The notes beneath the pieces were generated by a model. It had not been told where the DNA came from, ran no database searches, and saw nothing but the letters and a program-made list of their open reading frames with translations. From an uncultured Thermoleophilia bacterium (GTDB taxonomy: Bacteria > Actinomycetota > Thermoleophilia > UBA2241), in contig CAVPCT010000009.1 of assembly GCA_963702475.1 (NCBI GenBank), positions 288,001-352,000 on the forward strand: a stretch of DNA of 64,000 nucleotides. Direction: 5' to 3'. The position numbers and the translations under genes are program-made. Below are positions 13,363 to 30,413 of this stretch, piece after piece (position 1 is the first letter of the stretch; each line of letters begins with the position of its first letter).

Positions 13363-14769
13363 ATGGCTGGACCTGGGACGAAAGCCCAGCGAGCGCGCAT
13401 GACGGTCTTCGAAGCGTACGAGAGGGCCCGTAAGGGTCCCAAGTTCGATGAGGCGGTCTGGAACTTCGAGCTCATCCCACAGACCGCCAAGCGGTTGAAG
13501 GAGAAGTACGAGATCGTGATGGACAAGTCCGTCATGGTCCCAACCGATCCCGAGCTCATGACGAAGCTGTACAAGGCCGGCCTTGAGATGCTGGTCGAGT
13601 GCGGCGTGTACGTCATCGACACGAAGCGCATCATCAAGTACACCGAGGAAGAGATCCTCCTCGGCCTCGCGACGGCGCCCAAGACGTGCGTGATCGGCGA
13701 AGGCCTCCACGCGCGCCCCATGGAGTACCGCACCCACAAGGACTCGCGCCCGCCGCTGGTCCAGGGCGGTCCGACCGGCGCTCCCTGCAGTGAGCAATAC
13801 TTCTTCCCGATCCACGAGTCGTACGTCAAGGAAGGCATCGTCGACTGCATCGTGGACGGCGTGCTCTCCACCGTGAACGGCTACAACCCCGCCCCCGACA
13901 CGCCCTGGGAGGTCCTCGCCGGCCGCCAGGAGATCATGATGGTGCGCATGGCGCAGGCCAAGTGCGGCCGCGCGGGCATGGGGTTGTAGGGTCCCGAGAC
14001 CACGCTGAACGCAGCCGCCACGATCTCTCAGGACTTCCCGGGCGGCATGCGTACCTCGGACAACCACGAGGTGTCGCAGCTGAATGAGCTGAAGACCGAC
14101 CTAGGAGCGTTGCTCTTCACCTCTCATTACAGTCTCGCTGCGAACAACATCATGGTTGAGCAGATGCCGATCTTCGGCGGGTTCGCCGGTGGTCTCGAGG
14201 AGACGACCATCGTCAACGTCGCCACGCATATCAACTCGTTCGTGACGTTCGGCGGCACCTGGCACCTCGACGGTCCTGTCCACATGCGGTGGGGCATCAC
14301 GACGACCAGGGAGGCCCTGGCTATCGCGGGTCACGCCATCATGGCGGTCAACTCCGTCTGGCCGATCCTGAGCGGCAACCAGTACTACACCATGGCCGGT
14401 CCCTGCACCGTCATGTGCCTCCTGGAGACGGCTGCACAGGCCATCACCGATACCGCCAGCGGTCGCGAGATCATGTCCGGCGTCGCCGCCGCCAAGGGCG
14501 TCATCACCGACAAGACCACCGGCATGGAAGCCCGCTTCATGGGCGAGTGTGCGCACGCTGTCGCCGGCATGCCGACCGAGCAGACCAACGAGGTCCTCGA
14601 CGCGTTGGTGAAGATGTACGAGGGCGACTACAAGACGGCCGACCAAGGCAAGTTCTTCTACGAGTGCTACGACGTGGAGAAGGTCGTGCCCACGGACGAG
14701 TACCTCGAGGTCTACGACAAGGCTTGCGAAGTGATGAAGGGCCTCGGCGTCAAGCATCCACTCTGGTGA
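13363..14769 (+). CDS. mtmB: Monomethylamine:corrinoid methyltransferase, in-frame TAG 13987-13989 = pyrrolysine (codon 209)
   Basis: ORFs 13315-13989 and 14047-14769 are in frame across TAG: GRAGMGL*GPETTL matches MtmB GMG(V)OGPET; ELKTD, GNQYYTMAGPCT, TGMEARFM; SD AGGAGG 13351-13356. Confidence 0.95.
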
Positions 14770-14817
14770 GACGCGCCCGGTCAGTGAACACGCCGAGTCA
14801 GAGGAGGCTCTAGGCAA

Positions 14818-15459
14818 ATGGGAGACGCTGAGTTCATCAATGAAGCGATCGACTCGCTCCTGAACTACGACAAGGACAGGGCCGTCGACGTCGCAAACAA
14901 GGCCATCGCCGCCGGCATGGCACCAGACAAGCTGATGGCCGAGGGATTCGTGATCGGCATCCGCCAGCTGGGCGACAAGTTCGACGAGGGCGAGGTCTAC
15001 CTGCCCGAGCTCATGCTCGCGGCGGCCGCCATGGAAGCTGCCATGGCGATCTGCAACGCCGCGCTGCCTGAGGGCAAGAGCGAGGTACGCGGCAAGGTCG
15101 TCATCGGCACCGTCGAGGGCGACGTGCACGATATCGGCAAGGCCATCGTCTGTGCGTACCTGCGCGCCAACGGCTACGAGGTCTGGGACCTGGGCCGCGA
15201 TGTGCCGGTCGAGGACTTCGTCGACAAGGCCGAGGAGGTCGGCGCCGACATCATCGGCGCCAGCGCCCTGCTCACGGCCACCATGCGCAAGCAGTCGGAG
15301 ATCGTGGCGGAGCTCAAGGACCGCGGTATCCGCGAGAAGTACAAGTTCGTCGTCGGCGGCGCGCCCTGTACGCAGGAGTACGCCGACTCCATCGGCGCCG
15401 ACGCCTACGCGGCCGACGCCAGCGACGGCCTCAAGAAGATCGAGGAGCTCGTCAAGTAA
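14818..15459 (+). CDS. mtmC: Monomethylamine corrinoid protein
   Basis: B12-binding GTVEGDVHDIGK, SALLT, VVGGAP; follows mtmB. Confidence 0.92.
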   Translation: MGDAEFINEAIDSLLNYDKDRAVDVANKAIAAGMAPDKLMAEGFVIGIRQLGDKFDEGEVYLPELMLAAAAMEAAMAICNAALPEGKSEVRGKVVIGTVEGDVHDIGKAIVCAYLRANGYEVWDLGRDVPVEDFVDKAEEVGADIIGASALLTATMRKQSEIVAELKDRGIREKYKFVVGGAPCTQEYADSIGADAYAADASDGLKKIEELVK

Positions 15460-15499
15460 GAGTTGAGCCGGCGGCAGGCCGGCAGACACACCTGCCTGG

Positions 15500-15532
15500 A
15501 GGGCGGCGCTCGCACCACGCGGGCGCCGCCCT
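15500..15532 (+). terminator. GC-rich hairpin after mtmC
   Basis: AGGGCGGCGCTCGC-ACCAC-GCGGGCGCCGCCCT. Confidence 0.55.
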
Positions 15533-15622
15533 TCGCCGTACAGCAGAGATTGTGCTGAGTGTCACGTTCACATAAGGCACCTTGGCGGCCCATCAGTCGC
15601 CTTCACTTGGGGAGGTAGCCGA

Positions 15623-15667
15623 ATGAAGAGCAGATCGCACCTGCACGACGACGGAGCGGCGCCATGA
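15623..15667 (+). CDS. Putative 14-aa leader peptide MKSRSHLHDDGAAP
   Basis: SD GGGGAGGT 15609-15616, ATG 6 nt later; stop overlaps the next start (ATGA 15664-15667). Confidence 0.35.
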   Translation: MKSRSHLHDDGAAP

Positions 15668-16023
15668 GCACCCCGGACGTCGACTCCATCGTCGAACAAG
15701 CACTCGAAGCGGAAGTGCACGGCGGCAAACACGACCCGCGCATCGACAAGCTCTTCCGCCAGGACGTCATCACCATCTACGTCTTCGTCATCGCCCTGTG
15801 GCTCGTGCTCTGGACGGTGTTCTTCCTCGTCGCCAACCCTGTGATCGACGACGACAAGCTGCGCTGGCTCCTCATCGGACTCGGCGTGTTCGCCTCGATC
15901 TTCAACAGCGTCGGCATGATCTCCAACACCCGCAGGCTCAAGCACGAGGCCGTGCGCTTCTACTCGCAGGACCTGTTCTGGCAGGACGAGAAGAAGCGGC
16001 GCAAGGCCGCAGGGCTGCTGTGA
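15664..16023 (+). CDS. Small 2-TM membrane protein (permease-associated)
   Basis: Two hydrophobic helices, good codon bias, first gene of the permease operon. Confidence 0.75.
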   Translation: MSTPDVDSIVEQALEAEVHGGKHDPRIDKLFRQDVITIYVFVIALWLVLWTVFFLVANPVIDDDKLRWLLIGLGVFASIFNSVGMISNTRRLKHEAVRFYSQDLFWQDEKKRRKAAGLL

Positions 16024-16236: not shown

Positions 16237-16239
16237 CCG

Positions 16240-16585: not shown

Positions 16586-16774
16586 ATGCAGGCAATCAAC
16601 TACGTCATCTGGGCGATCGCCATAGCCCTGCTCGTCTGGCTCGTCTACGACGCGTTCCGCATCGAGACGACCTACGACGCCGAGCTCCTCGTCAGCTCCG
16701 TCGAAGGCGAGATCGAGAAGGAGATCCTCGACCACGCGCACCCGAGCACGCCGCCGCAGGGGGGTGCTAGCTGA
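16586..16774 (+). CDS. Small single-TM protein (62 aa) coupled to the permease
   Basis: MQAINYVIWAIAIALLVWLVYDAF...LLVSSVEG; TGATG overlap with the permease start. Confidence 0.75.
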   Translation: MQAINYVIWAIAIALLVWLVYDAFRIETTYDAELLVSSVEGEIEKEILDHAHPSTPPQGGAS

Positions 16775-18195
16775 TGGCCGCCCACGAAGTCGCAGCCGTC
16801 GGCGGCGCCGACATCACGCAACCGAAGCGCCTGAGCCTGCTCCGCGTCCTCGGCCCCATGCACGTGTGGGCTCTGGGCGTCGGCATCGTGCTCGTGGGCG
16901 AGTTCATGGGCTGGAACTTCACCGTGGCCAAGGGCGGCGTGTTCGGCGGCCTCGTGGCCTGCTGGTTCTCGGGCATCCTGTACTCCTGCGTCGCCATGAT
17001 CGACTCCGAGGTGAGCTCGACGGTGGCGTCGGCAGGCGGGCAGTACGCCCAGGCCAAGCACATCCTCGGCCCGCTCGCCGCGTTCAACATCGCCCTGTTC
17101 ATCATCTTCGAGTACTGCATGCTGTCGGCCGGCGACGCCCTCGTCATCGGGGCCCTGGTCAACAGCCTCGATCCCGCCCTCAGCCCCACGCCGGTCGTCG
17201 TGCTCACCATCGCCTTCCTGGCGTGGCTGAACTACCGCGGGGTGCACACCACGCTGACGTTCAACTTCATCATCACCGCCATCGCGTTCGTCACGATCCT
17301 GATCCTGATCGCGGGGGCGGAGTTCTGGAACCCGGGCCACATCACCCAGACCGAGGCTCTCTTCGCGCAGCCGCCCGGTGGCCTCGACCCGAAGTTGCCG
17401 TACGGCTGGCTCGGCATCCTGGCGGCGCTTCAGTTCGGCATCTGGTACTACCTCGGCATCGAAGGTACGTGCCAGACGGCCGAGGAGTGCCGCTCCGCGC
17501 CGCGCGCGCTGCCGGTGGGGACCATGTCGGGTCTGATCACCCTGCTGCTGGCAGCCACGCTCACCTGGTACATCTGCACCGCACTGGTGAACTGGATCTC
17601 CCTGGGCGAGTCGGTGTACCCGCTCTACGACGCCGCCGTGAACACCGGCAAGGGCTGGCTGATGGTGATCCTCTGGATAGGGTCGCTGCTCAGCTGTCTG
17701 GCGTCGTCCAACGGGTGCATCAACGACGCCTCGCGGGCCTGGTTCGCCATGGGGCGCGACCAGTTCATCCCCCGCTGGTTCGGCGGCGTCCACCCGAAGT
17801 ACAAGACGCCCTACCGCGCCATCCTGTTCCTGGTGCCGATCATGATCGCCTTCGGCTACACCGGGCTGCTCGACCAGGTCATCACCTTCTCGATCATCTC
17901 CGGCTGCCTGATCTACTTCATCATGCCGCTGAACATGATCAGGTTCCGCCGGCTCTACCCCATGGACTCGATCAAACGAGGGTACGTGTCTCCGTTCCAC
18001 CCGCTACCTTCGTACGTGTTGTTCGCGTTCGTGCTGCTGACGTTCATCGCCATGTACTTCGGCTACTGGCGCAACCTCGTCGCAGCTTTGGTCTTCTACG
18101 GCCTGTGCTCGCTCTGGTTCGTGCTGCACAGGTACAAGTTCGTGGACCGCACCAAGCTCTACACGATGCCGTGGCCGCGGCCCAAGGGCTACTGA
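16774..18195 (+). CDS. APC family amine permease (MtmP/ethanolamine permease-like)
   Basis: HVWALGVGIVLVGEFMGWN, AGGQY, WYYLGIEG...AEEC, SRAWFAMGRD, HPKYKTPYRAI. Confidence 0.85.
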   Translation: MAAHEVAAVGGADITQPKRLSLLRVLGPMHVWALGVGIVLVGEFMGWNFTVAKGGVFGGLVACWFSGILYSCVAMIDSEVSSTVASAGGQYAQAKHILGPLAAFNIALFIIFEYCMLSAGDALVIGALVNSLDPALSPTPVVVLTIAFLAWLNYRGVHTTLTFNFIITAIAFVTILILIAGAEFWNPGHITQTEALFAQPPGGLDPKLPYGWLGILAALQFGIWYYLGIEGTCQTAEECRSAPRALPVGTMSGLITLLLAATLTWYICTALVNWISLGESVYPLYDAAVNTGKGWLMVILWIGSLLSCLASSNGCINDASRAWFAMGRDQFIPRWFGGVHPKYKTPYRAILFLVPIMIAFGYTGLLDQVITFSIISGCLIYFIMPLNMIRFRRLYPMDSIKRGYVSPFHPLPSYVLFAFVLLTFIAMYFGYWRNLVAALVFYGLCSLWFVLHRYKFVDRTKLYTMPWPRPKGY

Positions 18196-18208: not shown

Positions 18209-18655
18209 ATGATGTTCGAGACTCTGCTGGTAGCTACCGACGGGTCCATAGCCGCGGAGAAGGCCGTGACCTGGGCCGTCGACTTCGCCAAACGGCACGA
18301 CTCGAAGCTCGTCGTGCTCAACGTCACACCTGACAAGCGTGTGCGGCTCCAGGACCAGGAGCCCAACGCCCCGCCCGCCGGCGACGTGTCGCCGGCGGAC
18401 GCCGGGGATCTCGTCTCGGACGAGGCCCTGGCCCGGGCCGAGAGGCTGGCCAAGGAAGCGGGCGTGACCTACGTGCTCGAGGAGGTCTACGGCCGCAATA
18501 TCGCCGCCACCATCGCCAAGGAGGCGCTCAACGTCGGCGCCGACCACATCATCATCGGCTCCACCGGGGTGACCGCGCTGGCCACCTGCGTCCTCGGCTC
18601 GGTCGCGCAGAACGTGGTGCACTACGCGCACTGTCCCGTGACGGTGGTCAGGTAA
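18209..18655 (+). CDS. Universal stress protein
   Basis: LLVATDGS, IIIGSTG...LGSVAQNVVHYAHCPVTVVR. Confidence 0.92.
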   Translation: MMFETLLVATDGSIAAEKAVTWAVDFAKRHDSKLVVLNVTPDKRVRLQDQEPNAPPAGDVSPADAGDLVSDEALARAERLAKEAGVTYVLEEVYGRNIAATIAKEALNVGADHIIIGSTGVTALATCVLGSVAQNVVHYAHCPVTVVR

Positions 18656-18701: not shown

Positions 18702-19370
18702 ATGGACGTCACCCTCATCATCAAGATAGCCGTCATCGTGGCTGCGGCCCTCGGCCTCGGTTACCTGTACGTCACGTACGTCTATCGCGACCGCCACCGG
18801 ACGCAGCACATGCTCGACGGCTTCCTGCCAATCCTGGAAGGGCCGACGGTAGGGAGAAGTTCCTGGGGCTACGAGCGCCTCGAGGGCGTCCTGGATGGAG
18901 ACCGGGTCAAGATCGACCTGCTCCCGGACTCGCTCATCACGCGGACCCTTCCCACGCTCTGGCTCGAGGTGTGCCTGTGCCGTCCTTTCGACGCGTTCCT
19001 GTGTGTGATCACATTGTGCAACGGCATGGAGTACTTCGCCGACGAGGTCGACGAGGGCACGCTCCTCAACACGCCGAGCACCTGGCCCGAAGGCGTGAGG
19101 GTGCGAGGCAAGAGCTTCGGCAGCGTGGGGCTCCTGCGGCGCGTCGCGGACGTCGACATCGGGGCCTACCCGCACCTCAAGCTGCTGGTCTTCAGCGAGA
19201 CCGGACTCAAGGTGGTCATGCGTGCCGCCCGCGGGGACGTCTCCCAATACAGGGTCATGCGGTCGGCAACCTTCGCTGAAGACTCAGTCAAACCCGAACT
19301 CGTCGACGAGACGGTCCGGCTCGTGCGCCACCTCGAGCGCGTGCTGGTACGTGGAGAGGAGATAGCGTGA
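18702..19370 (+). CDS. Hypothetical protein with N-terminal TM anchor
   Basis: SD GAGGA, TM helix, PDSLITRTLPTLWL motif, good codon bias. Confidence 0.7.
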   Translation: MDVTLIIKIAVIVAAALGLGYLYVTYVYRDRHRTQHMLDGFLPILEGPTVGRSSWGYERLEGVLDGDRVKIDLLPDSLITRTLPTLWLEVCLCRPFDAFLCVITLCNGMEYFADEVDEGTLLNTPSTWPEGVRVRGKSFGSVGLLRRVADVDIGAYPHLKLLVFSETGLKVVMRAARGDVSQYRVMRSATFAEDSVKPELVDETVRLVRHLERVLVRGEEIA

Positions 19371-19831
19371 GCAAGGTGCGCCGGGCCCGGCGGCCCCAGA
19401 AGCCGGCCCCCAAAGGCGAACTCAAGAAGCCGCGTCCGGTGTGGTTCGTCACGCTGCTGGCGTTCGTCCTGCCCGGGAGCGGCCAGTGGCTGAACGGCGC
19501 CCCCATCAGAGGCATGGTCATGCAGTTCAGCATGGTGCTGGGCGCGTACCTCACGTACCAGCTCACCACGCCCGAGATCTCGCCGGTCGGCCGCCTTGCC
19601 GGAGGCCTGCTGGTATGGGTCTTCTCGATCGTGGACGCCCATGGGATCGCCACCCGCAGGGTGAAGGCGTGGGCGCGCATAGAGGCGTCGCAGGCCGCCT
19701 CGCCGAACCCACCGCAGGCGAAGAAGGCCGGCGGCGCGAGCGACGGCAAGCCGTCCGGAGGCGCCCCGCGACGCATGCAGCCGAAAGGCGCCTCCCGGCG
19801 GCCGGCGACCTCGGGGAGTCACGACACCTGA
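19367..19831 (+). CDS. Hypothetical membrane protein
   Basis: GTGA overlap with upstream gene; LPGSGQWLNG..RG motif and about 3 TM helices. Confidence 0.7.
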   Translation: MSKVRRARRPQKPAPKGELKKPRPVWFVTLLAFVLPGSGQWLNGAPIRGMVMQFSMVLGAYLTYQLTTPEISPVGRLAGGLLVWVFSIVDAHGIATRRVKAWARIEASQAASPNPPQAKKAGGASDGKPSGGAPRRMQPKGASRRPATSGSHDT

Positions 19832-20003
19832 GCGGTGCCGAAGGCCCGCAGGTGCAGAGCGGCCCGGGCGACGCCCGGGCCGCTCTGCGTACGCGGCCCT
19901 CACACCGCGCGCCACGTGGGACCAGGTGTGGGAGGCGCCCACCTGCGGAAGAACCGACCCACCGGCGGCAGCGGCCGCCGGCCGCAACTGACCGGGGGTG
20001 CCC

Positions 20004-20213
20004 ATGAGCATCACGCTCTACACGCGACCCGACTGTCGCTACTGTGACGCGGCGCGCCGCTACTTGGACGAGCGCGGCGATGCCTATGAAGAGCGGGACA
20101 TCAGCGCCGACGTCGAGGCCGAACGGGAGGTCATCGCCATCACCGGCGGACCCCTGAGCGTGCCGATCACGGTCGAGGACGGCGACGTCAGGGTCGGCTT
20201 TCCGTATCAATGA
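20004..20213 (+). CDS. Glutaredoxin-like protein (CRYC)
   Basis: YTRPDCRYC, SVP cis-Pro motif, VGF C-terminus. Confidence 0.82.
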   Translation: MSITLYTRPDCRYCDAARRYLDERGDAYEERDISADVEAEREVIAITGGPLSVPITVEDGDVRVGFPYQ

Positions 20214-20730: not shown

Positions 20731-22131
20731 GTGAGCAAGATCTGGACCCGAATGGGTGACGGCAACGCCGTCGAACTGACCCCAGACGAACTCCGCCAGG
20801 ACATCATCGCGGCGACTGAAGACGCCGCGGACAAGGGGCACATCCCGCCCCTTGAAGAGAACGAGATCGACCACCTGTATGACCTCTTCGCGGCGCCGTA
20901 CCGCATCATCGGCGTCGAGCCCGGCCATGAAGTGCCGCTGACCAAGGACGAGACGGCGTGCACCCTCGTCTCCTCGCAGCTGTCGAGTGGTTCACACCTG
21001 GCGATAAGCCGCGAAGACGCAGTCGAAGTCTTCGAGCGCGTGTTCGCGTTCGACACCATGGAGCTGGGCTGGATCGACTACTCCTTCAAGCCGGCGAAGC
21101 CCATGGTCTCTCTGGACCAGGTCTCCATCGAGCGCATCATGGCCACCACCGTGTTCCCGGTGCTCTACGGCGCCATGCCGAACATGGGCCTCTACTACAC
21201 GCCGGACGGGCCGTTCACCAACCCGGCCGACCTCCTCGGCATGATGAAGGTCGAAGAGGCGCGTGAGGAGGAGATGAAGGCCGCCGAGCTCTGCATGGAA
21301 GACATGATCTTCGTGTGCGAGCGCATGAACGAGATCGGCGCCGACGGCATCGACTTCGACACCACGGCCTCCGCGGGTGACGCCGACTTCTGGTCGGTCC
21401 TCAAGACGGTCGAGCATCTCAAGGCCCACACCGACCTCGGCGTCGAGATGGGCATGTCCGGCGAGTTCATCCTCGGCATGCACGGCGAGGTCGAGTACAA
21501 CGGCAAGAGGCTCGCCGGCATGTTCCCGCACCAGCAGCTGAAGTGCGCGGAAGAGGCGGGCGTCGACATCTTCGGCCCCGTGGTCAACACCAAGACCAAC
21601 AAGTCCTGTGCCTGGAACGTCGCCCGCGCCGTCACGTTCGTCAAGGAAGTCTGCAAGCAGGCCACCATCCCGATCCACGCGAACGTGGGTATGGGCGTAG
21701 GCGGCACGCCGATGTTCGAGACACCGCCGATCGACGCTCTCAGCCGCGCGAGCGTAGCCATGGTCGAGATCGCCAAGGTCGACGGGTTGTAGGTCGGCGT
21801 CGGCGATCCCTACGGCATGTCCATCATGCACTCGATCGCATCTGGAATGGGTGGCATCCGCACCGCTGGAGACCTGGTGGCAAGGATGGAGCTCAATCAC
21901 CGGATGAGGCTTCCCGAGGCGAAGAAGTACGTGGCCGACAAGCTCGGCGTCAGCGTGTTCGACCTGTCGGACTCCACCGTCATGCGCAACCTGCGCGAAG
22001 AGCTCAACATCGGCGTGATCGAGGCGATCCCGGGCCTGGCGAAGGGCTACACCGCCAAGGCGCGCATCGCCGATCTCCTCGACATCAAGATCAACGGCGT
22101 CGAGCGCCAGATGGCGAAGATGCCGGCTTGA
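20731..22131 (+). CDS. mtbB: Dimethylamine:corrinoid methyltransferase, in-frame TAG 21790-21792 = pyrrolysine (codon 354)
   Basis: TRMGDG start, [21 protein letters not shown] matches MtbB DG(I)O(I)[20 protein letters not shown]; both ORF halves are in frame. Confidence 0.95.
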
Positions 22132-23948: not shown

Positions 23949-24197
23949 CTCATCCTTCGGCCCGCCGCGCCCCATCGGGGGAGCGCCGGCGCGACCGACA
24001 GAGGTGTATCCCTGGTCCTGCGTGCACGGCATCCGGGGGGATCGCCGTCGCACTGGGGAGGTGGTGCCGCAACCTGAGCCGCCGGACGACCACCGGTCTC
24101 GCGCCCGGTGCCGGCCCGTTTCATGCCGGCACGTCACCGGGCCAAAGCCATGGTCCCGGGATCTCTCACACAACGTCAACGAGCAGAGGGGGGAGCA

Positions 24198-25817
24198 ATG
24201 ATAGTGGCAGCCGCGATCAGTCCAGTCTGGTACTGGGTCATCGTGCTCGGCTACATGCTCGTGCTGATCGGGATCGGCGCCTGGACGTACCGCTACCAGA
24301 AGCAGCAGAAGTCCGCGACCGACGAGCACGACGACTACTGGATCGCCAAGCGCCGCAACAACGCCCTCGTGGTGGGCTGCGCCATCGCTGCAGGCTGGTT
24401 CCTGATGGGCTTCATCACCTGGGCCATGTACAACACCTACATGTACGGCATCGGCGGCATCTGGGCCATGGTCGTACCGTGGACGGTGCTGCTGTTCTGC
24501 ATGGTGATCCTCGTGCCGTGGGTACGGCGCATGAAGGCCATCTCGCAGCCGCAGATGCTCCAGCAGCGCTTCGGACTGGCTCTGCGCGTGCTCGTGAGCC
24601 CGTTCAACATGTTCTGCTTCATCATCTGGGCCGCGGCGGAGATCTGGACGGTCTCGCTGTACATGGCGTCGGCATTCGGCGTCCAACCCTGGGTCCTCTA
24701 CATCGTCTTCGCCGTGCCCTGCGCCCTCTACATGGCCCTGGGCGGCTTCCACGCCGTCATCAGCGCCAACCTGCTGCAGTTCGCCATGGGCGTCACCTTC
24801 GTCACCATCATCTTCTTCGTGATGGTCTTTGAGGCGTGGGACGCCCTGCCCAGTGGCCAGAGCATGATCGACTACCTCGGGAGCGTCGTACCGGCGGGCA
24901 ACTCGGAAGGCGACAGTGCGCTCACGCTCTTCAGCCTGGGCATACCGTTCGCCATCTTCTCGCTCATCGCACTCCTGCCGGGGTGGGTGATCGAGGAGGA
25001 CTGGTGGCTCAAGGCGCAGTCGGCCAAGAGCACGCGTGCCGCACGGCAGGGCATCTGGGCCAACCTGAGCTACAACCTCATCTGGATCCTCGGCCTGCCG
25101 AGCCTCATCGGCCTCTTCGCCCTCGTGCTTTATCCGCCGGAAGTGCTCGACACCAAGCTGGCCGGGAACGCCTACGAGCTCATGCCGGTGTTCCTGGGTG
25201 ACTACTTCCCGCCTTGGCTGCAGATGATCGTGTTCTGCCTCATGGCTGCACACGCCGTAGCCACGGTGGCTACGTTCACCAACGTGTCGGCCCTCAACAT
25301 CAGCTACGACGTCCTGCAGCCGCTCGTATACCGCAAGCGCGGGTGGGGTGACGCCAGGATCGTGCTGGCCAGCCGCATCGCGTCGCTGTTGGTCGTCATC
25401 GCCACCCTGGGCGTGACGTTCCTCATCGACATGCTGCCGCAGGGCCTGTGGGACGCGTACTACCTGTCCAGCGGTGTGCTCTCTGCTGCCGTCGGCGTCT
25501 CCGTACTCTCCATCTTCTGGAAGCGCGCCAACTTCGCCGGTGCTTTCGCTGCGTCGCTCGTCGGTGGCGTCACCACACTCGTGCTGTTCATCGTGGAGAA
25601 GTACGTCTGGGAGTACGACTGGCCGATCCCGATCCCGGATTCCATGGTCGCTACCGGCTACGCCTACGCGGTGGTCGGCGTGATCCTCGCCATCATCACC
25701 CTGGTCGTGGTCACGCTGCTGACGCCCAAGCCGCCGCAGATCAACCTCGACTCCATCTCGGCGCAACCCGTTGACGATCACGCCGAGTTCTTCGCCGGCG
25801 TGCGTGAGACGTACTGA
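24198..25817 (+). CDS. Sodium:solute symporter family protein
   Basis: DDYWIAKR, LQQRFG, YMALGGFHAVISANLLQF, FWKRANFAGAFA; many TM helices. Confidence 0.88.
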   Translation: MIVAAAISPVWYWVIVLGYMLVLIGIGAWTYRYQKQQKSATDEHDDYWIAKRRNNALVVGCAIAAGWFLMGFITWAMYNTYMYGIGGIWAMVVPWTVLLFCMVILVPWVRRMKAISQPQMLQQRFGLALRVLVSPFNMFCFIIWAAAEIWTVSLYMASAFGVQPWVLYIVFAVPCALYMALGGFHAVISANLLQFAMGVTFVTIIFFVMVFEAWDALPSGQSMIDYLGSVVPAGNSEGDSALTLFSLGIPFAIFSLIALLPGWVIEEDWWLKAQSAKSTRAARQGIWANLSYNLIWILGLPSLIGLFALVLYPPEVLDTKLAGNAYELMPVFLGDYFPPWLQMIVFCLMAAHAVATVATFTNVSALNISYDVLQPLVYRKRGWGDARIVLASRIASLLVVIATLGVTFLIDMLPQGLWDAYYLSSGVLSAAVGVSVLSIFWKRANFAGAFAASLVGGVTTLVLFIVEKYVWEYDWPIPIPDSMVATGYAYAVVGVILAIITLVVVTLLTPKPPQINLDSISAQPVDDHAEFFAGVRETY

Positions 25818-25861: not shown

Positions 25862-26317
25862 ATGGCATACACAATCGTGGTGGGGTACGACGGGTCCGAG
25901 CCGGCCAAGAAGGCGCTGGCCGCGGCCATCGAGTTCGCCAAGACCACACCCGACGCCGAGATCGTGGTCGTCTGCGGCCAGGACCGCAGGCCGGGGTACT
26001 TCTACTATGACGACCAGCCACTGTGGAAAGAGGCCATCAAGCTCGACCAGATGTGGGAGCACATGGAGGCCAAGATCGAGGAGGACCTCCAGGAAGCGGT
26101 GAAGGTCGTCCAGGACGCAGACGTGAAGGCGACCGCTGCCTGCGGTCGCGGACGGCCGTCTTCGATCGTGCTGAACGTGGCGCGAGAGACCGGCGCCCGC
26201 CTCATCGTCGTGGGCACACACGGCTCCGGCAAGGACGAGGAGACCACGGTGATGGGCTCCACGACGACGGAGCTGCTTCACCAGACGCACGTGCCAGTGC
26301 TGGTCGTGCCTCACTGA
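25862..26317 (+). CDS. Universal stress protein
   Basis: IVVGYDGSE, IVVGTHGSG...GSTTTELLHQTHVPVLVVP. Confidence 0.92.
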   Translation: MAYTIVVGYDGSEPAKKALAAAIEFAKTTPDAEIVVVCGQDRRPGYFYYDDQPLWKEAIKLDQMWEHMEAKIEEDLQEAVKVVQDADVKATAACGRGRPSSIVLNVARETGARLIVVGTHGSGKDEETTVMGSTTTELLHQTHVPVLVVPH

Positions 26318-26348
26318 CCACCGTGCGCGCCTGACGCGCACGGAGTGC

Positions 26349-26385
26349 CCGGCCGCCGGCGAGTCTCTGGCTCGCCGGCGGCCGG
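26349..26385 (+). terminator. 15-bp hairpin after USP
   Basis: CCGGCCGCCGGCGAG...CTCGCCGGCGGCCGG. Confidence 0.55.
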
Positions 26386-26512
26386 TAGTACGGCCCGGCC
26401 CGGGCCGTGGAACATACGGGGAGAGTCGCGACCGGCGGCCGTCCGGGGGCTCGTTCGTCTGAGCCCGGAGGTCCACCGGTCGTGTCCCCTCTTAACATCC
26501 TTGGGGGAGTCG

Positions 26513-27367
26513 GTGACCTTCGACGAATTCGCACTCATGCTCACAGCTGGGCCCAGGGCCAAGCTGCGGGCGGAAGTCTCCCTGGAGGACCGCGAGCGCA
26601 TCCTGCGCTCCCTCATGGGCCGCCTTCCCGTCATGGTCTACCGCTGCGCCGACGACGCCCAGTGGACCATGGAGTTCGTGAGCGCCGGAGCAGAGGAGAT
26701 CACCGGCTACAAGCCGGAGGAGCTCGTTGGCAACGCCCGGCTGGCGTACACCGACCTGGTGGTGCCGTGGCACTACGAGGGCGTCTGCCGCGACATCCAG
26801 CACGCCATCGAGAAGCACAACGCGTGGACGACGTCCTACCCCATCATCACCGCGTCAGGCGACCGCAAGTGGGTGTGGGAGCGCGGTGTGGCCGTGCTCG
26901 ACGACGCCGGGGAGGTGATAGCGCTTGCAGGGATCATCATCGACATGACCGTGGAGCGCGAGGCCGAGGAGTCACTCGAGCTCGCGCTCGCCGAGTGGCG
27001 CCAGGTGTTCGACGCCATGGACGACGCCGTGATGGTCCTGGACGGCGACGGCGAGGTGCTGCGAGCCAACGCGGCGGCAGCGGCTCTCAGCGGACTCGAT
27101 CAGGCCGAGATGGCCGGGCTCAAGTGCTCGGACGCGCTGCAGGAGCTCTGCGGCCAGGCCCAGGGCATGTGTCCTCGCGACAGGGTGCTGCTGTCGGGGC
27201 GGACGGAGATGACCTACGTGGAGCACGAAGGCAGGCTGCTTCGCCTGACGTTCAAGCCGACCCCGGTCATGGACGGACGCGTCAACGGCGGCTTGTACGT
27301 CGTGAGCGACGTCACGGACGCCGTCCGGGCACGGCCGCAGGACGCACCGGGTACGTCCTACGTGTGA
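26513..27367 (+). CDS. Stand-alone PAS/PAC-PAS domain protein
   Basis: WTMEFVS..EEITGYKPEEL, RKWVWERG...GIIIDMT, second PAS (VFDAMDDAV...RAN); no output domain; GTG start after GGGGAG. Confidence 0.78.
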   Translation: MTFDEFALMLTAGPRAKLRAEVSLEDRERILRSLMGRLPVMVYRCADDAQWTMEFVSAGAEEITGYKPEELVGNARLAYTDLVVPWHYEGVCRDIQHAIEKHNAWTTSYPIITASGDRKWVWERGVAVLDDAGEVIALAGIIIDMTVEREAEESLELALAEWRQVFDAMDDAVMVLDGDGEVLRANAAAAALSGLDQAEMAGLKCSDALQELCGQAQGMCPRDRVLLSGRTEMTYVEHEGRLLRLTFKPTPVMDGRVNGGLYVVSDVTDAVRARPQDAPGTSYV

Positions 27368-27748: not shown

Positions 27749-27963
27749 CGTGTCCTCCCGCTCGTTCGCTCGGCGCATCGCCCGCCTCGAGTGCCAGTGT
27801 GGAAGTGCGAGAGCGGAATCTTGTGCCGTTCTGGCGAATTCAGTGCCCTGTGGGGCCTTATGCGGTAGAGTACTGCGCAACAGGGTGCGGGAAGCGGCAA
27901 AACAGATGTTCACTGTGTCCATCTATAAGCTACGCACTAGGCCATAACAAACAACATTGAGCC

Positions 27964-27993
27964 TTGATGCAGGGGTCGCGTATCTCCTATAGT
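27964..27993 (+). promoter_or_regulatory. Putative promoter of mttBC
   Basis: TTGATG-18bp-TATAGT downstream of an AT-rich tract (about 27899-27960). Confidence 0.5.
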
Positions 27994-28261
27994 CGCGCTC
28001 ACCACCGTCCATAACGGCGACACATCGAGAAGGCTCTGTGTACTGTCTGGGTGCACGGCCTTTCTCATCGCACGTTGTCACACTCCGGGCTTCGGCCCAC
28101 GCGTCGACCATGACGGGCCACGTTCCCACCGTCGACTGGATCGTGGCGCGAACCGCGCTCAAGGGAGGAGGCGGGATGACGAGATGAGGGCGAGCCCACG
28201 AGGCCCTGCGGCCGGGTTCGCCCAGAACCGCTATCTGCAAAGTGCGTAAGAAGGAGGCGGA

Positions 28262-29737
28262 ATGATTCGAAGTCAAAGGTCAGGCATCAACCACCAGGGC
28301 GGCATCGGCATCGATGTCTTCAGCGAGGATGAGAGGCAGGCCATCCACTGGGGCACCGTCGAGGTGCTCGAGACGGCCGGCATCTGGGTGGAGGACGACG
28401 AGGCCCTCGACCTGTTCGCCGACGGCGGCTGCAAGGTCGACCGCTCGACGCGCAAGGTGCGGATCCCGCAGCACGTGCTCGAGGAGTGCATCAGTTGGGC
28501 GCCCTCCACGGTCACCCTCTGCGGCCGCGACCCCGCCAAGGACCTCGTCATGGAGGGCCGGCGGGTCGCGTTCACCAACTTCGCCGAGGGAGTGAAGGCC
28601 GTCGACCTGTACGACGGCAAGCTTCGCCCGACCACCAAGAAGGACGTCGGCGACCTCGCCCGTCTCGTCGACGCGCTCTCCGACATCGAGGTCTACACGA
28701 TCGCGGTGACGGCCACCGACGTGCCCCCGGAGGTCGCCGAGGCGCACCTCATCGAGCAGTCGTTGCTGAACACGACGAAGCCCATCTGCAGCCTGGCCCT
28801 CGCCCATCACGGCGCCCGCCTCCACATCGACGCCGCGGCCGCCGTGGTCGGCGGCCACGACAAGCTGGCCGACCGGCCGATGCTGCTCTTCCTCAGCTGC
28901 CCGGTCAGCCCGCTCAAGCTCATGGGCGAGTTCAGCGGGTGCATCATCGAGGCGGCCCGCGCCCATCAGGTCGCGATGCCGCTATCGATGGCCATGTCAG
29001 GCGGCTCCGCCCCGGTCACCCTGGCCGGCACCATGGTCACGCACAACGCCGAGGTGCTCGCCGGCATCGTCCTGGCGCAGCTCGCCGAGAAGGGCGCCAA
29101 GTGCGTCTACGGCACCTCCACCACCGCCTTCGACCTGCAGCGCGCGGCCGCGACCGTGGGCACCCCGGAGCTCGGCCTCATCAGCGCGGCCGTGGCCGAG
29201 ATGGGCCGCTACTATGGCCTGCCGACCTACGGCGCCGGGTTGTAGAGCGATTCCAAGCTCGGCGGCGACGCCCAGGTCGCGCACGAGAAGACCGTCACCG
29301 GCCTCCTGCCAGCGTTGGGAGGGCTCAACCTGATCTATGGAGCCGGGATGATCGAGTCGGGCGTCACCATCGACTACGGCACGCTCGTCATGGACAACGA
29401 CATCGCCCGTATCTGCAAGTACGTCCTGCGTGGCATCCCCACGAACGACGCGACGCTGATGGTTGATGAGATCATCGAGGTGGGGTCCGAGGAGGACTTC
29501 CTCTCGAGGATGAGCACCCTGAAGCTGATGCGTGAACACCAGTCCAAGGCCGGCAACATCGACCGCCGCGTGCGCGAGGAGTGGGAGATGGACGGCGGCA
29601 AGGACATGTACAGCCGCTGCAACGAGATGGCCAAGGAGCTCGTCGAGAGCCACACGGTTCCCGAGCTGCCGAGCGACGTCAAGGACCAGATCAGGGCCAT
29701 CGTCGTCAAGGCCGAGAAGGACGCTGGAGTCGCCTGA
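28262..29737 (+). CDS. mttB: Trimethylamine:corrinoid methyltransferase, in-frame TAG 29243-29245 = pyrrolysine (codon 328)
   Basis: CPVSPL, LSMAMSGGSAPVTLAGT..THNAEVL, GLPTYGAGL*SDSK..DAQ.AHEKT matches MttB OSD(A/S)K; both halves in frame; SD AAGGAGG. Confidence 0.95.
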
Positions 29738-29786
29738 GAGCTCAGCGCTCCGCAACGAACGCACGACGTGGAGGACATAGGATCCT

Positions 29787-30413
29787 ATGGCAGACTTTGA
29801 CTCTCTCAAGCAGATGATCGTCGACGGCAACGACGCCGCCACGGCCGCCACCCAGGCGCTCGTGGACGGCGGCGCCTCCGCCCGCGATATCCTCGACAGC
29901 GCCCTGCTTCCCGGCATGGACATCGTCGGCGCGCAGATGAAGAGCGGCGACAAGTTCATCCCCGAGGTGCTGCTCAGCGCCCGCACCATGCAGGGCTGCC
30001 TCGACATCATCAAGCCGCTTCTTGGTGAGGGCGGCGGCTCCCTCGGCACGGTCGTCATCGCCACCGTCGAGGGCGACATGCACGACATCGGCAAGAACCT
30101 CGTCGCCATGCTGCTCAGCGGCGCCGGCTTCGAGGTCGTCAACCTCGGCAAGGGCATCACCTGCGCCGACATGGTCGCCGCCTGCAAAGAGCACGACGCC
30201 GACATCCTCGGCATGAGCGGCCTGCTGACCACCACCATCCCCAAGATGCCCGAGACCATCCAGGCCCTCAAGGACGCCGGCCTGCGCGACAAGGTCAAGG
30301 TCATCGTCGGCGGCGCCCCGGTCAGTGCCGAGTGGGCCGCCGAGGTGGGCGCCGACGCCTACGGTGCCAACGCGTCCCTCGGCGTCGAGAAGTGCAAGGA
30401 GCTCATGGGCTGA
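29787..30413 (+). CDS. mttC: Trimethylamine corrinoid protein
   Basis: TVEGDMHDIGKNLV, SGLLTTT, VIVGGAP; follows mttB. Confidence 0.9.
   Translation: MADFDSLKQMIVDGNDAATAATQALVDGGASARDILDSALLPGMDIVGAQMKSGDKFIPEVLLSARTMQGCLDIIKPLLGEGGGSLGTVVIATVEGDMHDIGKNLVAMLLSGAGFEVVNLGKGITCADMVAACKEHDADILGMSGLLTTTIPKMPETIQALKDAGLRDKVKVIVGGAPVSAEWAAEVGADAYGANASLGVEKCKELMG

What the first reader, a model, noticed from the sequence alone, without database searches (positions are those of the whole stretch)
13363..30413. Complete pyrrolysine-dependent TMA/DMA/MMA demethylation set in a probable actinobacterium
Seen: three apparently split ORF pairs are each continuous through one in-frame TAG (13987, 21790, 29243), at codons 209, 354 and 328, and each is followed by a DxHxxG corrinoid protein. 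Known: Methanosarcina MtmB, MtbB and MttB carry Pyl at residues 202, 356 and 334 in the same motifs, and bacterial Pyl users are described mainly in Firmicutes and Deltaproteobacteria. Inference: a Thermoleophilia-like organism uses the 22nd amino acid to strip all methyl groups from trimethylamine anaerobically. Standard annotation would call these six fragments or pseudogenes.
Basis: partly seen in the sequence, partly recalled or inferred. Interest (0 to 1): 0.9.

Follow-up and report, generated by a model that had tools for sequence, protein, structure and literature searches.

The report
Pyrrolysine methylamine island in Thermoleophilia bacterium
Three genes that look broken by a stop codon are real enzymes that read that stop as the rare 22nd amino acid pyrrolysine, letting a little-known soil and sediment actinobacterium strip methyl groups from tri-, di- and monomethylamine; the trait is real but has already been glimpsed in this group.

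Summary
mtmB, mtbB and mttB each carry one in-frame TAG (13987, 21790, 29243). Each TAG sits exactly on the pyrrolysine (Pyl) position of the reference enzyme or family model, and each gene is followed by a DxHxxG corrinoid protein.

The same 4.3-Mb MAG holds a complete Pyl system on contig C3: pylBCD, pylT (CUA), pylSn and pylSc. The codons after each TAG are under the same purifying selection as those before it (dN/dS 0.10-0.17 against 0.13-0.20). RecA on the window's own contig is nearest to Thermoleophilia/Actinomycetota MAGs.

The three cassettes sit in a ~27-kb accessory island between recX and rny, found in about 8-10 of 53 congeners. The genome has 26 TAG-bearing methyltransferase loci, 21 of them intact-looking. 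PylSc is found in 51 of 55 sampled genomes of the family.

TAG still ends ~14% of long ORFs and RF1 is present, so UAG has two meanings. Acetyl-CoA synthase, RamA-type activases and selA/selB/tRNA-Sec are also present, as is a heme-copper oxidase.

Novelty is modest. PylRS of a Thermoleophilia MAG (Guo 2022) and expressed Pyl-mttB/mtbB in Actinobacteriota MAGs (Ellenbogen 2023) are in print. Verdict: supported; a new member of a known kind, with a strikingly large set of Pyl genes.

The parts
6670..8468 (+). recA (6670-7764, ends in TAG) and recX (7773-8468): left flank of the island, core genes
   Evidence: Pfam RecA 457 bits and RecX domains. In 3 congeners without the island, recX is followed directly by rny.
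8499..10601 (-). 700-aa ORF with a weak APC-permease match; first gene inside the island
   Evidence: Pfam AA_permease_2 40.6 bits. No counterpart at 50% identity or more in the G028 island.
10776..12926 (-). GAF / HisKA_3 / HATPase_c sensor histidine kinase; candidate regulator
   Evidence: Pfam.
13363..14769 (+). mtmB, monomethylamine:corrinoid methyltransferase, in-frame TAG (Pyl) at 13987-13989; start uncertain (13315/13363/13399)
   Evidence: Pfam MtmB 661 bits. E 3.6e-159 to M. barkeri MtmB, with the TAG on residue 202. PYLIS_1 47.8 bits starting at 13987, below its gathering score of 70. dN/dS 0.144 before and 0.105 after the TAG against G028.
14818..15459 (+). mtmC-like corrinoid protein (DxHxxG)
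   Evidence: B12-binding_2 + B12-binding. TIGR02370 227.6 bits, cut-off 215.3. Motif GDVHDIGK.
15664..16023 (+). 119-aa ORF of unknown family, conserved in the island of G028 (82% identity)
   Evidence: No Pfam or NCBIfam match; tblastn.
16774..18195 (+). APC-family permease (ethanolamine-permease-like); candidate methylamine transporter
   Evidence: Pfam AA_permease 107 bits. TIGR00908 207 bits, below its cut-off of 382.
18209..18655 (+). universal stress protein (first of three, one behind each transporter)
   Evidence: Pfam Usp 103 bits.
18702..20213 (+). two ORFs of unknown family (18702-19370, 19367-19831) and a glutaredoxin (19998-20213)
   Evidence: No family for the two ORFs. Glutaredoxin 48.6 bits. 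All three are conserved in G028.
20731..22131 (+). mtbB, dimethylamine:corrinoid methyltransferase, in-frame TAG (Pyl) at 21790-21792
   Evidence: TIGR02368 544 bits, cut-off 369; the halves match profile 7-355 and 357-461. PYLIS_2 78.1 bits, gathering score 36, from 21790. dN/dS 0.195 before and 0.17 after the TAG.
22192..22839 (+). mtbC-like corrinoid protein (DxHxxG)
   Evidence: Pfam. TIGR02370 212.3 bits, just under the cut-off of 215.3. Motif.
24108..25817 (+). sodium:solute symporter family transporter
   Evidence: Pfam SSF 71 bits.
25862..26317 (+). universal stress protein (second)
   Evidence: Pfam Usp 83 bits.
26345..27367 (+). PAS-domain protein; candidate sensor
   Evidence: Pfam PAS_4, PAS_9 and PAS_3.
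28262..29737 (+). mttB, trimethylamine:corrinoid methyltransferase, in-frame TAG (Pyl) at 29243-29245
   Evidence: TIGR02369 619 bits, cut-off 525. E 5e-110 to MttB chain 7xcl, with the TAG on X334. PYLIS_3 52.8 bits, gathering score 38, from 29243. dN/dS 0.13 before and 0.165 after the TAG (first 92 codons).
29787..30413 (+). mttC-like corrinoid protein (DxHxxG)
   Evidence: Pfam. Motif GDMHDIGK.
30760..32370 (+). APC permease, equivalog of the trimethylamine N-oxide permease model
   Evidence: NF053774 753 bits, cut-off 690.
32377..32826 (+). universal stress protein (third)
   Evidence: Pfam Usp 61 bits.
33687..35011 (+). DUF6951 protein (33687-34031) and a QueG/reductive-dehalogenase-like Fe-S protein (34196-35011); right end of the island
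   Evidence: Pfam DUF6951 69 bits. TIGR00276 and TIGR02486 matches, both below cut-off. The Fe-S gene is also present in the G028 island.
35406..36941 (+). rny (RNase Y): right flank, core gene
   Evidence: Pfam RNase_Y_N + HD; synteny.

Best explanation
The window holds a ~27-kb accessory island (about 8.5-35.1 kb) inserted between recX and rny of a Thermoleophilia-like actinobacterium. The island carries three cassettes, each made of a methyltransferase, a corrinoid protein, a transporter and a universal stress protein. They serve monomethylamine (mtmBC), dimethylamine (mtbBC) and trimethylamine (mttBC).

Each methyltransferase gene has one UAG that is decoded as pyrrolysine by the genome's own system on another contig: tRNA-Pyl(CUA), split PylSn/PylSc synthetase and PylBCD biosynthesis. 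These points are shown by sequence.

The following steps are inferred from what is known of the families:
- The Pyl enzyme passes the substrate's methyl group to Co(I) of its partner corrinoid protein.
- A second methyltransferase passes the methyl group on to a C1 carrier, most likely tetrahydrofolate. Candidates are the URO-D-family genes beside a RamA-type activase on C8, or a pterin-binding enzyme.
- RamA-type activases re-reduce oxidised cobalt.
- Methyl-THF then enters the Wood-Ljungdahl machinery (CODH/ACS cluster on C5), to be made into acetyl-CoA or oxidised.

UAG remains an ordinary stop for about one long ORF in seven, and RF1 is present. Pyl insertion must therefore compete with termination, as in other Pyl bacteria. 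Whether it is helped by regulated expression of the pyl genes or by mRNA context is unknown.
For: - One TAG per gene, on the Pyl column.
- Family scores above curated cut-offs for mtbB and mttB and 661 bits for MtmB.
- pyl genes in the same assembly, with bits against cut-off: pylB 435.6/348, pylC 323.8/248, pylD 209.6/150, pylSn 126.5/51, pylSc 314/178.
- ARAGORN calls a tRNA-Pyl(cta) directly behind pylD. It has a 6-bp anticodon stem, a 3-nt variable loop and one base between the acceptor and D stems.
- In congener G028 the three TAGs are conserved. dN/dS after the TAG is 0.105, 0.17 and 0.165, against 0.144, 0.195 and 0.13 before it.
- Every full-length ortholog in the genus has the TAG: mtmB found in 10 of 53 other species, mttB in 8 of 53, mtbB in 8 of 53.
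- All 10 genomes with the mtmB ortholog also have PylSc.
- Island synteny: recX and rny are adjacent in G002, G007 and G073. The island lies between them in G000 and G028, and by coordinates in G006.
- Downstream parts: three RACo/RamA loci, a CODH + AcsB + CdhD + pterin-binding cluster, and URO-D-family genes beside a RamA.
- Contigs from RNA libraries of two studies lie across the mtmB and mtbB TAG sites at 93-97% identity. This is a weak hint of transcription only.
Against: - No protein evidence: Pyl incorporation is inferred, not seen.
- The assembly is a MAG (93.8% complete, 6.5% contamination), and the pyl genes are on a different contig (C3) from the island (C9).
- TAG ends 379 of 2624 long, codon-bias-confident ORFs (14.4%). 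There is no excess of nearby back-up stops, and RF1 scores 477 bits against a cut-off of 423. How read-through is confined to the right genes is therefore unexplained.
- Only mtmB shows an unusually stable fold after its TAG (z -2.75, 1 of 200 shuffles). mtbB (-0.83) and mttB (-1.29) do not. Nine mtmB orthologs show no compensatory pair changes.
- The second methyltransferase and the methyl acceptor are not identified by any specific test.
- A heme-copper oxidase subunit I is present, so strict anaerobiosis is not established.
- The read laying tables do not show whether the RNA contigs keep the TAG (40 of 960 difference rows were printed).
Confidence: 0.9

Rival explanations
1. The three genes are pseudogenes or yield only truncated products: TAG is a true stop and the downstream pieces are decaying remnants.
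For: TAG is a normal stop in 14.4% of long ORFs and RF1 is present. Five of the genome's 26 TAG-bearing methyltransferase loci are frameshifted or fragmentary, so decay does happen in this family.
Against: The segments after the TAG evolve under the same purifying selection as those before it (dN/dS 0.10-0.17). They keep the coding GC3 of 0.86-0.89 and have no further stop or frameshift. The TAG is kept at the same codon in every full-length ortholog and falls on the catalytic Pyl column. A full Pyl system is present.
Confidence: 0.03
2. Binning artefact: the island (contig C9) and the pyl genes (contig C3) come from different organisms, so this organism may not decode UAG as Pyl.
For: The MAG has 6.5% estimated contamination and the two loci are on separate contigs.
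Against: All nine contigs have 69.5-70.9% G+C. C3 itself carries TAG-bearing mtbB and mttB paralogues. PylSc is found in 33 of 36 other species of the genus and 51 of 55 genomes of the family, all independent assemblies. It is found in all 10 genomes that hold the mtmB ortholog. The island contig carries recA, whose nearest named homologues are Thermoleophilia/Actinomycetota, the same label as the nearest PylSc loci.
Confidence: 0.03
3. The genetics are as described but the physiology differs. The island serves methylamines as a nitrogen source or an auxiliary methyl source in a facultative, possibly microaerobic heterotroph, rather than anaerobic methylotrophic growth. Alternatively, the mttB cassette acts on TMAO-derived TMA.
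For: A heme-copper oxidase subunit I scores 541.6 bits. The permease behind mttC is an equivalog of a trimethylamine N-oxide permease model (753 bits, cut-off 690). The island is accessory, with orthologs in only 8-10 of 53 congeners. A universal stress protein gene follows each transporter.
Against: A CODH/ACS cluster with its own activase and methyltransferase is present. The genome also has three RamA-type reductive activases and Sec machinery. These fit an anaerobic C1 metabolism. Relatives of this group are described from anoxic habitats (McDaniel 2020, passages read).
Confidence: 0.25
4. UAG in these genes is read through by something other than Pyl, such as near-cognate suppression inserting a standard amino acid.
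For: No direct evidence. Two close MttB paralogues in this genome have Leu at the Pyl column, which shows the position can be held by a standard residue.
Against: pylBCD, pylSn, pylSc and a CUA-anticodon tRNA with tRNA-Pyl architecture are all present above cut-offs. The TAG, and not a sense codon, is conserved across orthologs at 82-93% identity.
Confidence: 0.02

Closest known systems
Methanosarcina barkeri MtmB / MtbB / MttB with MtmC / MtbC / MttC (Pyl-dependent methylamine:corrinoid methyltransferases)
   Same: Same three enzyme families, the same single UAG on the catalytic Pyl position (202 / 356 / 334), and the same pairing with a DxHxxG corrinoid protein and a nearby permease. Rfam PYLIS models built on these genes start on the same codon.
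   Different: The host is a high-G+C actinobacterium, not a methanogen, and the methyl acceptor is presumably tetrahydrofolate rather than coenzyme M (inferred). PylS is split into PylSn + PylSc, as in bacteria. The gene order here is B then C. From recall, the archaeal operons are written mtmCB and mttCB.
Bacterial Pyl users: Desulfitobacterium hafniense, Acetohalobium arabaticum, and the Olavius algarvensis delta1 symbiont
   Same: Split pylSn/pylSc, pylBCD and pylT, TAG-bearing mttB/mtbB, UAG still used as a stop, and no common PYLIS structure. These points are stated for D. hafniense and delta1 in Zhang & Gladyshev 2007 (passages read). Sec and Pyl systems occur together, as in delta1.
   Different: - Different phylum. 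On the PylSc tree the 40 Actinomycetota-labelled rows, the query and one Zixibacteria-labelled MAG form one clade (SH-aLRT 97), apart from Bacillota, Dehalococcoidales and Thermodesulfobacteriota.
- mtmB is present here; delta1 had 0 MtmB, 6 MtbB and 2 MttB.
- 26 TAG loci here against 8 in delta1.
- TMA-induced expansion of the code in A. arabaticum is recalled, not read.
Actinobacteriota / Thermoleophilia MAGs already reported with Pyl genes
   Same: - The supplement of Guo et al. 2022 lists PylSc of 'Thermoleophilia bacterium' and 'Actinobacteria bacterium ADurb.BinA094'. By eye these are clearly related to, but not identical with, this genome's PylSc.
- Ellenbogen et al. 2023 state that some Actinobacteriota MAGs express Pyl-encoding mttB and mtbB (passages read).
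- NCBI names the homologues 'pyrrolysine--tRNA(Pyl) ligase large subunit [Thermoleophilia bacterium]'.
   Different: In what I read, those papers do not describe any of the following: a Pyl-mtmB or a full TMA/DMA/MMA set in this lineage; the recX-rny island; the size of the paralogue family; the family-wide spread of PylS; or TAG usage. In the Ellenbogen supplements I ran term searches only.
Non-Pyl MttB superfamily (MtgB glycine betaine, MtpB proline betaine, MtcB carnitine, MtyB gamma-butyrobetaine methyltransferases)
   Same: Same fold family. This genome holds 45 further tblastn matches to MttB that have an ordinary residue at the Pyl column. PDB glycine betaine methyltransferases match the window's MttB at E about 1e-57.
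   Different: The window's mttB has the UAG and passes the trimethylamine equivalog model TIGR02369. It belongs with the Pyl enzymes, not with the quaternary-amine enzymes.

Membership tests
MtmB (PF05369), Pyl-dependent monomethylamine methyltransferase | Full-length match to the family model | tested here: met
   661 bits, profile 1-449 of 450. E 3.6e-159 to M. barkeri MtmB structures. No NCBIfam model matched at E <= 1e-4.
MtmB (PF05369), Pyl-dependent monomethylamine methyltransferase | In-frame UAG at the position of Pyl202 | tested here: met
   The placeholder at query residue 225 aligns with residue 202 of chain 1tv2 in the motif MG[LV]-O-GPET (my count). PYLIS_1 model position 1 falls on 13987 (score below the gathering score).
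MtbB (TIGR02368 / PF09505) | Score above the curated equivalog cut-off | tested here: met
   544.4 bits against 369.1. Pfam 656 bits.
MtbB (TIGR02368 / PF09505) | In-frame UAG at the Pyl position (356 in M. barkeri, recalled) | tested here: met
   The halves match profile 7-355 and 357-461. PYLIS_2 78.1 bits (gathering score 36) starts at 21790. No solved structure to align to.
MttB (TIGR02369), Pyl-dependent trimethylamine methyltransferase | Score above the equivalog cut-off and UAG at Pyl334 | tested here: met
   619.2 bits against 525. The TAG aligns with X334 of 7xcl. PYLIS_3 52.8 bits (gathering score 38) starts at 29243.
Cognate corrinoid proteins (TIGR02370) | B12-binding_2 + B12-binding domains with the DxHxxG cobalt-ligand motif, encoded next to the methyltransferase | tested here: met
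   3 of 3 have both domains and the motif. TIGR02370 scores are 227.6, 212.3 and 169.2 bits against a cut-off of 215.3, so only the first passes that subfamily cut-off.
Pyrrolysine system | tRNA with CUA anticodon and tRNA-Pyl architecture | tested here: met
   ARAGORN tRNA-Pyl(cta) at C3:641046-641118, with a 6-bp anticodon stem and a 3-nt variable loop. That these are the hallmarks of tRNA-Pyl is recalled.
Pyrrolysine system | [quoted passage not shown] | tested here: met
   All five are above NCBIfam cut-offs.
Pyrrolysine system | Pyl actually inserted at UAG | not testable with these tools
   Needs mass spectrometry. Indirect support comes from dN/dS after the TAG.
PYLIS cis-element | Conserved RNA structure after the UAG, supported by covariation | tested here: inconclusive
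   Rfam matches are 2 above and 1 below the gathering score, but these models cover coding sequence. Fold z-scores are -2.75, -0.83 and -1.29. There were 0 pairs with changes on both sides in 9 mtmB orthologs.
Bacterial methylamine-to-THF route (MT2 + RamA + Wood-Ljungdahl) | Methylcorrinoid:THF (or CoM) methyltransferase specific for these corrinoid proteins | tested here: inconclusive
   Candidates exist: URO-D family genes at C8:49409-51587 beside a RamA, and pterin-binding genes at C5:452332 and C3:503817. None lies in the island and no specificity test is possible.
Bacterial methylamine-to-THF route (MT2 + RamA + Wood-Ljungdahl) | RamA-type reductive activase and CODH/ACS present in the genome | tested here: met
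   Three RACo_C_ter loci. Prismane CODH 535 bits, AcsB (CdhC + ACS_CODH_B_C), CdhD and a pterin-binding protein are clustered on C5.

The most novel reading that the evidence does not exclude
This Thermoleophilia family is a clade of Pyl specialists. PylSc is found in 51 of 55 sampled genomes of the family. This genome has 26 TAG-bearing methyltransferase loci, 21 of them intact-looking: 1 mtmB, 7 mtbB and 13 mttB. That would be one of the largest sets of Pyl proteins (pyrroproteomes) known in any bacterium.

The many deeply diverged Pyl-MttB and Pyl-MtbB paralogues are 44-59% identical to the window's copies, and most have no corrinoid gene beside them. They may act on methylated amines other than TMA and DMA. 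All of this happens while UAG stays a working stop in about 350 other genes with RF1 present. That would make the lineage a natural test case for how a bacterium handles a codon with two meanings on a large scale.
Probability: 0.3. Interest if true: 0.7.

Novelty: new member of a known kind. Interest (0 to 1): 0.5.

Why it matters
Standard annotation would split these genes or call them pseudogenes. The capacity of this widespread soil, peat and sediment lineage to consume methylamines would then go unseen. Methylamines are the substrates of methylotrophic methanogens, so Pyl-using bacteria that compete for them bear on methane budgets. Ellenbogen et al. 2023 raise this theme for thawing permafrost.

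For genetic-code biology, a high-G+C bacterial family holds more than 20 Pyl genes per genome, keeps RF1 and uses TAG as a stop in 14% of long ORFs. It also encodes selenocysteine. This offers a large natural data set on how UAG read-through is tolerated or controlled. The island itself, three tidy cassettes dropped between recX and rny in a subset of species, is a clean example of modular gain of a substrate range on top of a code expansion the lineage already had.

Tried and rejected
1. PYLIS structure. 120 nt after each TAG were folded. Only mtmB stood out (z -2.75). RNAalifold on 9 mtmB orthologs gave no pair with changes on both sides. Not enough variation; left inconclusive.

2. att-like direct repeats at the island borders. 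The repeat finder on 8300-35500 returned only the paralogous corrinoid and Usp genes, with no flanking repeat pair. No tRNA lies at the borders; the only tRNA in the window is tRNA-Pro at 58611.

3. Genome-wide screen for further TAG-interrupted genes by codon bias. It gave 89 candidates. Most are probably neighbouring genes that happen to share a frame. I did not sort them beyond the methyltransferases, so other Pyl proteins are neither found nor excluded.

4. A first ungapped dN/dS run gave 0.93 for the mtmB C-terminal part. This came from a misaligned segment. The protein-guided codon alignment replaces it.

5. Expression. RNA-library contigs from 2 studies lie on mtmB, mtmC, mtbB and mtbC and bridge two TAG sites. 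The tool warns that DNA can be present in such libraries, that depth cannot rank genes, and I could not lay a silent control stretch. Parts without cover mean nothing.

6. Earlier notes of this scan for this genome: nothing returned.

7. Adjacent corrinoid genes for all 26 loci. Only the three window genes and three others (C6:374647, C3:1126964, and the degraded C5:932086) have one within about 1 kb.

8. Exact GTDB name of the genus. The nearest named PylSc loci are Thermoleophilia MAGs, including 'UBA2241' and a 'Chersky' isolate. The Ellenbogen supplement shows an order RBG-16-64-13 in Thermoleophilia with a genus Chersky-299. The link to this genome is a guess and is not claimed.

Full report
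**Observation.** Under the standard bacterial code the region shows three split ORF pairs on the + strand: 13315..13989 / 14047..14769, 20731..21792 / 21817..22131, and 28262..29245 / 29315..29737. With TAG read through, each pair becomes one frame with exactly one odd codon, of 484, 466 and 491 residues. The TAGs lie at 13987, 21790 and 29243. Each read-through product matches one Pfam family from end to end across the TAG: MtmB 661 bits, Dimeth_Pyl 656 bits and MTTB 300 bits. The window is 66-70% G+C, and the coding third-position G+C stays at 0.86-0.91 on both sides of each TAG.

**Is the TAG on the pyrrolysine (Pyl) column?** Four independent alignments say yes.
- The mtmB TAG aligns with residue 202 of M. 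barkeri MtmB (chains 1tv2/1l2q, E 3.6e-159) in the motif MG-[LV]-O-GPET (my count).
- The mttB TAG aligns with the X at residue 334 of MttB chain 7xcl (E 5e-110, my count).
- mtbB has no solved relative. Its two halves match the equivalog model TIGR02368 at positions 7-355 and 357-461, so the TAG is position 356.
- Rfam's three PYLIS models, whose first three positions are the UAG, start exactly at 21790 (78.1 bits, gathering score 36), 29243 (52.8 bits, gathering score 38) and 13987 (47.8 bits, below the gathering score of 70).

mtbB and mttB pass NCBI's equivalog cut-offs: 544 against 369 and 619 against 525. All three downstream genes encode B12-binding_2 + B12-binding proteins with GD[VM]HDIGK, that is DxHxxG.

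**Pyl machinery.** The window is C9:288001-352000 of a 4.31-Mb, 9-contig MAG that is 93.8% complete with 6.5% contamination. Contig C3 holds, all above NCBIfam cut-offs:
- pylB (ends at 638949), pylC (638946-640193) and pylD (640190-640996);
- a tRNA-Pyl(cta) at 641046-641118;
- pylSn (642189-642515);
- a corrinoid protein and a further TAG-bearing mtbB (655728-657365);
- pylSc (657644-658501, minus strand).

ARAGORN draws the tRNA with one base between the acceptor and D stems, a 3-bp D stem, a 6-bp anticodon stem, a 3-nt variable loop and an encoded CCA. That these are the hallmarks of tRNA-Pyl is from recall.

**Are the downstream halves translated?** In congener G028 all three TAGs are conserved. 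A protein-guided codon comparison gives dN/dS of 0.144 before and 0.105 after the TAG for mtmB, 0.195 and 0.17 for mtbB, and 0.13 and 0.165 for mttB (first 92 codons after the TAG). An earlier ungapped run was misaligned and is superseded. Across the 53 other species genomes of the genus, window-type orthologs were found in 10 (mtmB, E <= 1e-80), 8 (mttB, E <= 1e-200) and 8 (mtbB, E <= 1e-200). Every full-length hit has the TAG, and one G020 mtmB copy has two. All 10 genomes with the mtmB ortholog also have PylSc. This rules out pseudogenes and makes a binning artefact very unlikely.

**Organism.** recA lies on the same contig, 5.6 kb upstream of mtmB. Among the 120 best of its homologues, the 5 that carry a source name are all 'Actinobacteria/Actinomycetota bacterium' (89% identity) or 'Thermoleophilia bacterium' (85, 83 and 82%). 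The nearest named PylSc homologues and loci are also Thermoleophilia/Actinomycetota MAGs. The GTDB order could not be read from the unnamed handles.

**Context: an accessory island.** The flanks are core genes: ftsK, pgsA, cinA, recA and recX on the left, and rny, miaB, a LigB-family gene and further on proS on the right. In three congeners without the orthologs (G002, G007, G073), cinA-recA-(recX)-rny-miaB-ligB are contiguous. In G028 the same island, gene for gene, lies between recX and rny. In G006 recA sits 3 kb before mtmB. The island spans about 8.5-35.1 kb, has 0.66 G+C against 0.70 in the flanks, and contains:
- a sensor kinase;
- three cassettes of methyltransferase, corrinoid protein, transporter and Usp;
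- a PAS protein, a glutaredoxin, a DUF6951 protein and an Fe-S protein;
- several ORFs of unknown family.

The transporters are an ethanolamine-permease-like APC protein, an SSF symporter, and an equivalog of a TMAO permease model at 753 bits against a cut-off of 690. No flanking direct repeats or integrase were seen.

**The genome-wide picture is larger than the finding.** tblastn of the three proteins against the genome found TAG at the Pyl column in 1 mtmB, 10 mtbB and 15 mttB loci, 26 in all. Twenty-one are single full-length matches (1, 7 and 13; one mttB is cut by a contig end). Five are frameshifted or fragmentary: C7:37206-38562, C4:85-1439, C5:362174-363528, C5:363609-365021 and C5:931603-933068.

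The paralogues are 44-59% identical to the window's copies, except the frameshifted C7 mtbB copy, whose aligned segment reaches 70%. Two close MttB paralogues have Leu at the Pyl column. A further 45 MttB matches and 4 MtmB-family matches have ordinary residues or gaps there. The genome has 24 corrinoid-protein loci, but only six of the 26 TAG loci have one within about 1 kb. For comparison, the Olavius delta1 symbiont had 8 Pyl methyltransferases (6 MtbB, 2 MttB, 0 MtmB) and was called the bacterial record in 2007 (passages read). I did not survey later literature for larger counts.

**Spread of the trait.**
- Within the genus, PylSc (TIGR02367 above cut-off) was found in 33 of 36 other sampled species.
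- In an even draw of 300 other genomes of the class, it was found in 51 of 55 of the window's family, 9 of 55 of a second family, and 0 of 190 in ten other families. That is 13 of 105 genera, counting the window's own.
- In the 1.84-billion-protein representative library only 49 clusters reach E <= 1e-30. Outside the lineage's own cluster the nearest are about 50% identical.
- 568 stretches of the species-genome collection encode a PylSc relative, from Bacillota, Thermodesulfobacteriota, Dehalococcoidia, Aminicenantes, Spirochaetes and others.
- On a quick IQ-TREE of 82 rows (L064 was dropped as too short), the 40 Actinomycetota-labelled rows, the query and one Zixibacteria-labelled MAG form one clade (SH-aLRT 97). 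Its sister relations are unresolved.

This fits one acquisition of the Pyl system in this actinobacterial lineage followed by vertical descent, with the TMA/DMA/MMA island gained later by a subset of species.

**How UAG is handled.** Of 2624 ORFs of at least 200 codons with strong codon bias, 2170 end in TGA, 379 in TAG (14.4%, including the upstream halves of the Pyl genes) and 75 in TAA. The distance to the next in-frame stop is no shorter after TAG (median 62 codons) than after TGA (58). RF1 is present at 477 bits against a cut-off of 423. UAG is therefore a dual-use codon, unlike the all-TAG-is-Pyl archaeal code (Kivenson 2025, seen only as a citation). A PYLIS-like structure is neither supported nor excluded.

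**Downstream metabolism (inferred).** The genome has:
- three RACo/RamA-type activases, one beside two URO-D-family methyltransferase genes and a B12-binding protein on C8, and one beside three non-Pyl MttB genes on C4;
- a CODH, AcsB, CdhD, RACo and pterin-binding methyltransferase cluster on C5;
- selA, selB and tRNA-Sec.

These fit anaerobic C1 metabolism through methyl-THF. A heme-copper oxidase subunit I is also present, so a facultative lifestyle cannot be excluded.

**Expression hint.** Near-identical DNA occurs in sediment, wastewater and freshwater-sediment metagenomes from several studies. Contigs of RNA libraries from two studies lie on mtmB, mtmC, mtbB and mtbC at 93-97% identity and bridge the TAGs at 13987 and 21790 (records 26, 30 and 16). 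The tool cautions that DNA may be present in such libraries. The printed tables do not show whether the TAG is kept.

**Prior knowledge.**
- Guo et al. 2022 found PylRS genes in 81 bacterial genomes, including 'two Actinobacteria' (section passage). Their supplement names 'Thermoleophilia bacterium' and 'Actinobacteria bacterium ADurb.BinA094'.
- Ellenbogen et al. 2023 write that some Actinobacteriota MAGs express Pyl-encoding mttB and mtbB, and name RBG-16-64-13 as the most active actinobacterial methylotroph genus (passages). Their supplement places an order of that name in Thermoleophilia.
- McDaniel et al. 2020 describe anaerobic, hgcA-bearing Thermoleophilia of order UBA2241 (passages).
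- Searches for pyrrolysine with Actinobacteria, Thermoleophilia, Actinomycetota or Actinobacteriota, for Thermoleophilia with trimethylamine methyltransferase, for UBA2241, and for RBG-16-64-13 with methyltransferase turned up no dedicated description of the Pyl system, of a Pyl-mtmB, or of the island in this lineage. Subscription journals are not covered.

**Verdict.** This is a new, well-equipped member of a known kind of system, in a lineage where the trait has been noted but not studied. The points worth following up are the size and diversity of the set of Pyl genes, the family-wide retention of Pyl alongside normal TAG stops and RF1, and the modular recX-rny island.

Noticed in passing
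G000 C3:147145-150506 and C3:167171-167268 (outside the window): selA (522 bits, cut-off 268), selB (310 bits, cut-off 242) and a tRNA-Sec(tca) are present. The genome therefore encodes both the 21st and the 22nd amino acid.
   Followed up: partly
G000 C4:59964-61364 and C4:42548-43981 (outside the window): Two MttB paralogues, 44% identical to the window's Pyl-MttB and as similar to it as the TAG-bearing copies, have Leu (motif AGGL[SG]DGK) where the others have TAG. They are possible natural Pyl-to-Leu replacements within the Pyl clade.
   Followed up: no
G000 C5:362174-365021; also C7:37206-38562, C4:85-1439 and C5:931603-933068: Frameshifted or fragmentary TAG-bearing mtbB/mttB copies. They are either decaying paralogues or assembly errors.
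   Followed up: partly
window 6670-8468 (recA, recX): recA ends in TAG, and recX starts 9 nt later in another frame. Several database homologues at 94-95% identity over ~90% of RecA are far longer (583-630 aa) and carry RecX domains, i.e. they were called as RecA-RecX fusions in relatives (P0151, P0164). Whether that reflects gene calling, frameshifts or read-through was not examined.
   Followed up: no
window 18209-18655, 25862-26317, 32377-32826: A universal stress protein gene follows each of the three transporters. The last two are 80% identical over their first 81 nt. In G028 the second and third lie on the opposite strand. Their role in the cassettes is unknown.
   Followed up: no
L063 (MAG labelled candidate division Zixibacteria): Its PylSc nests inside the Actinomycetota clade (65% identity to the query). 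This is either a mis-binned or mislabelled contig, or a transfer.
   Followed up: no
G020 C14:682083-691813: This congener has two mtmB copies 8 kb apart, both 91% identical to the window's. One has two in-frame TAGs.
   Followed up: no
G000 C3:223689-225029 and C5:442765-453172: A heme-copper oxidase subunit I (542 bits) and a CODH/acetyl-CoA synthase cluster occur in one MAG. This means either a facultative lifestyle or contamination.
   Followed up: no
window 30760-32370: The permease behind mttC passes the equivalog model for a trimethylamine N-oxide permease (NF053774, 753 bits, cut-off 690). The cassette may therefore import TMAO as well as, or instead of, TMA. No TMAO reductase was looked for.
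   Followed up: no
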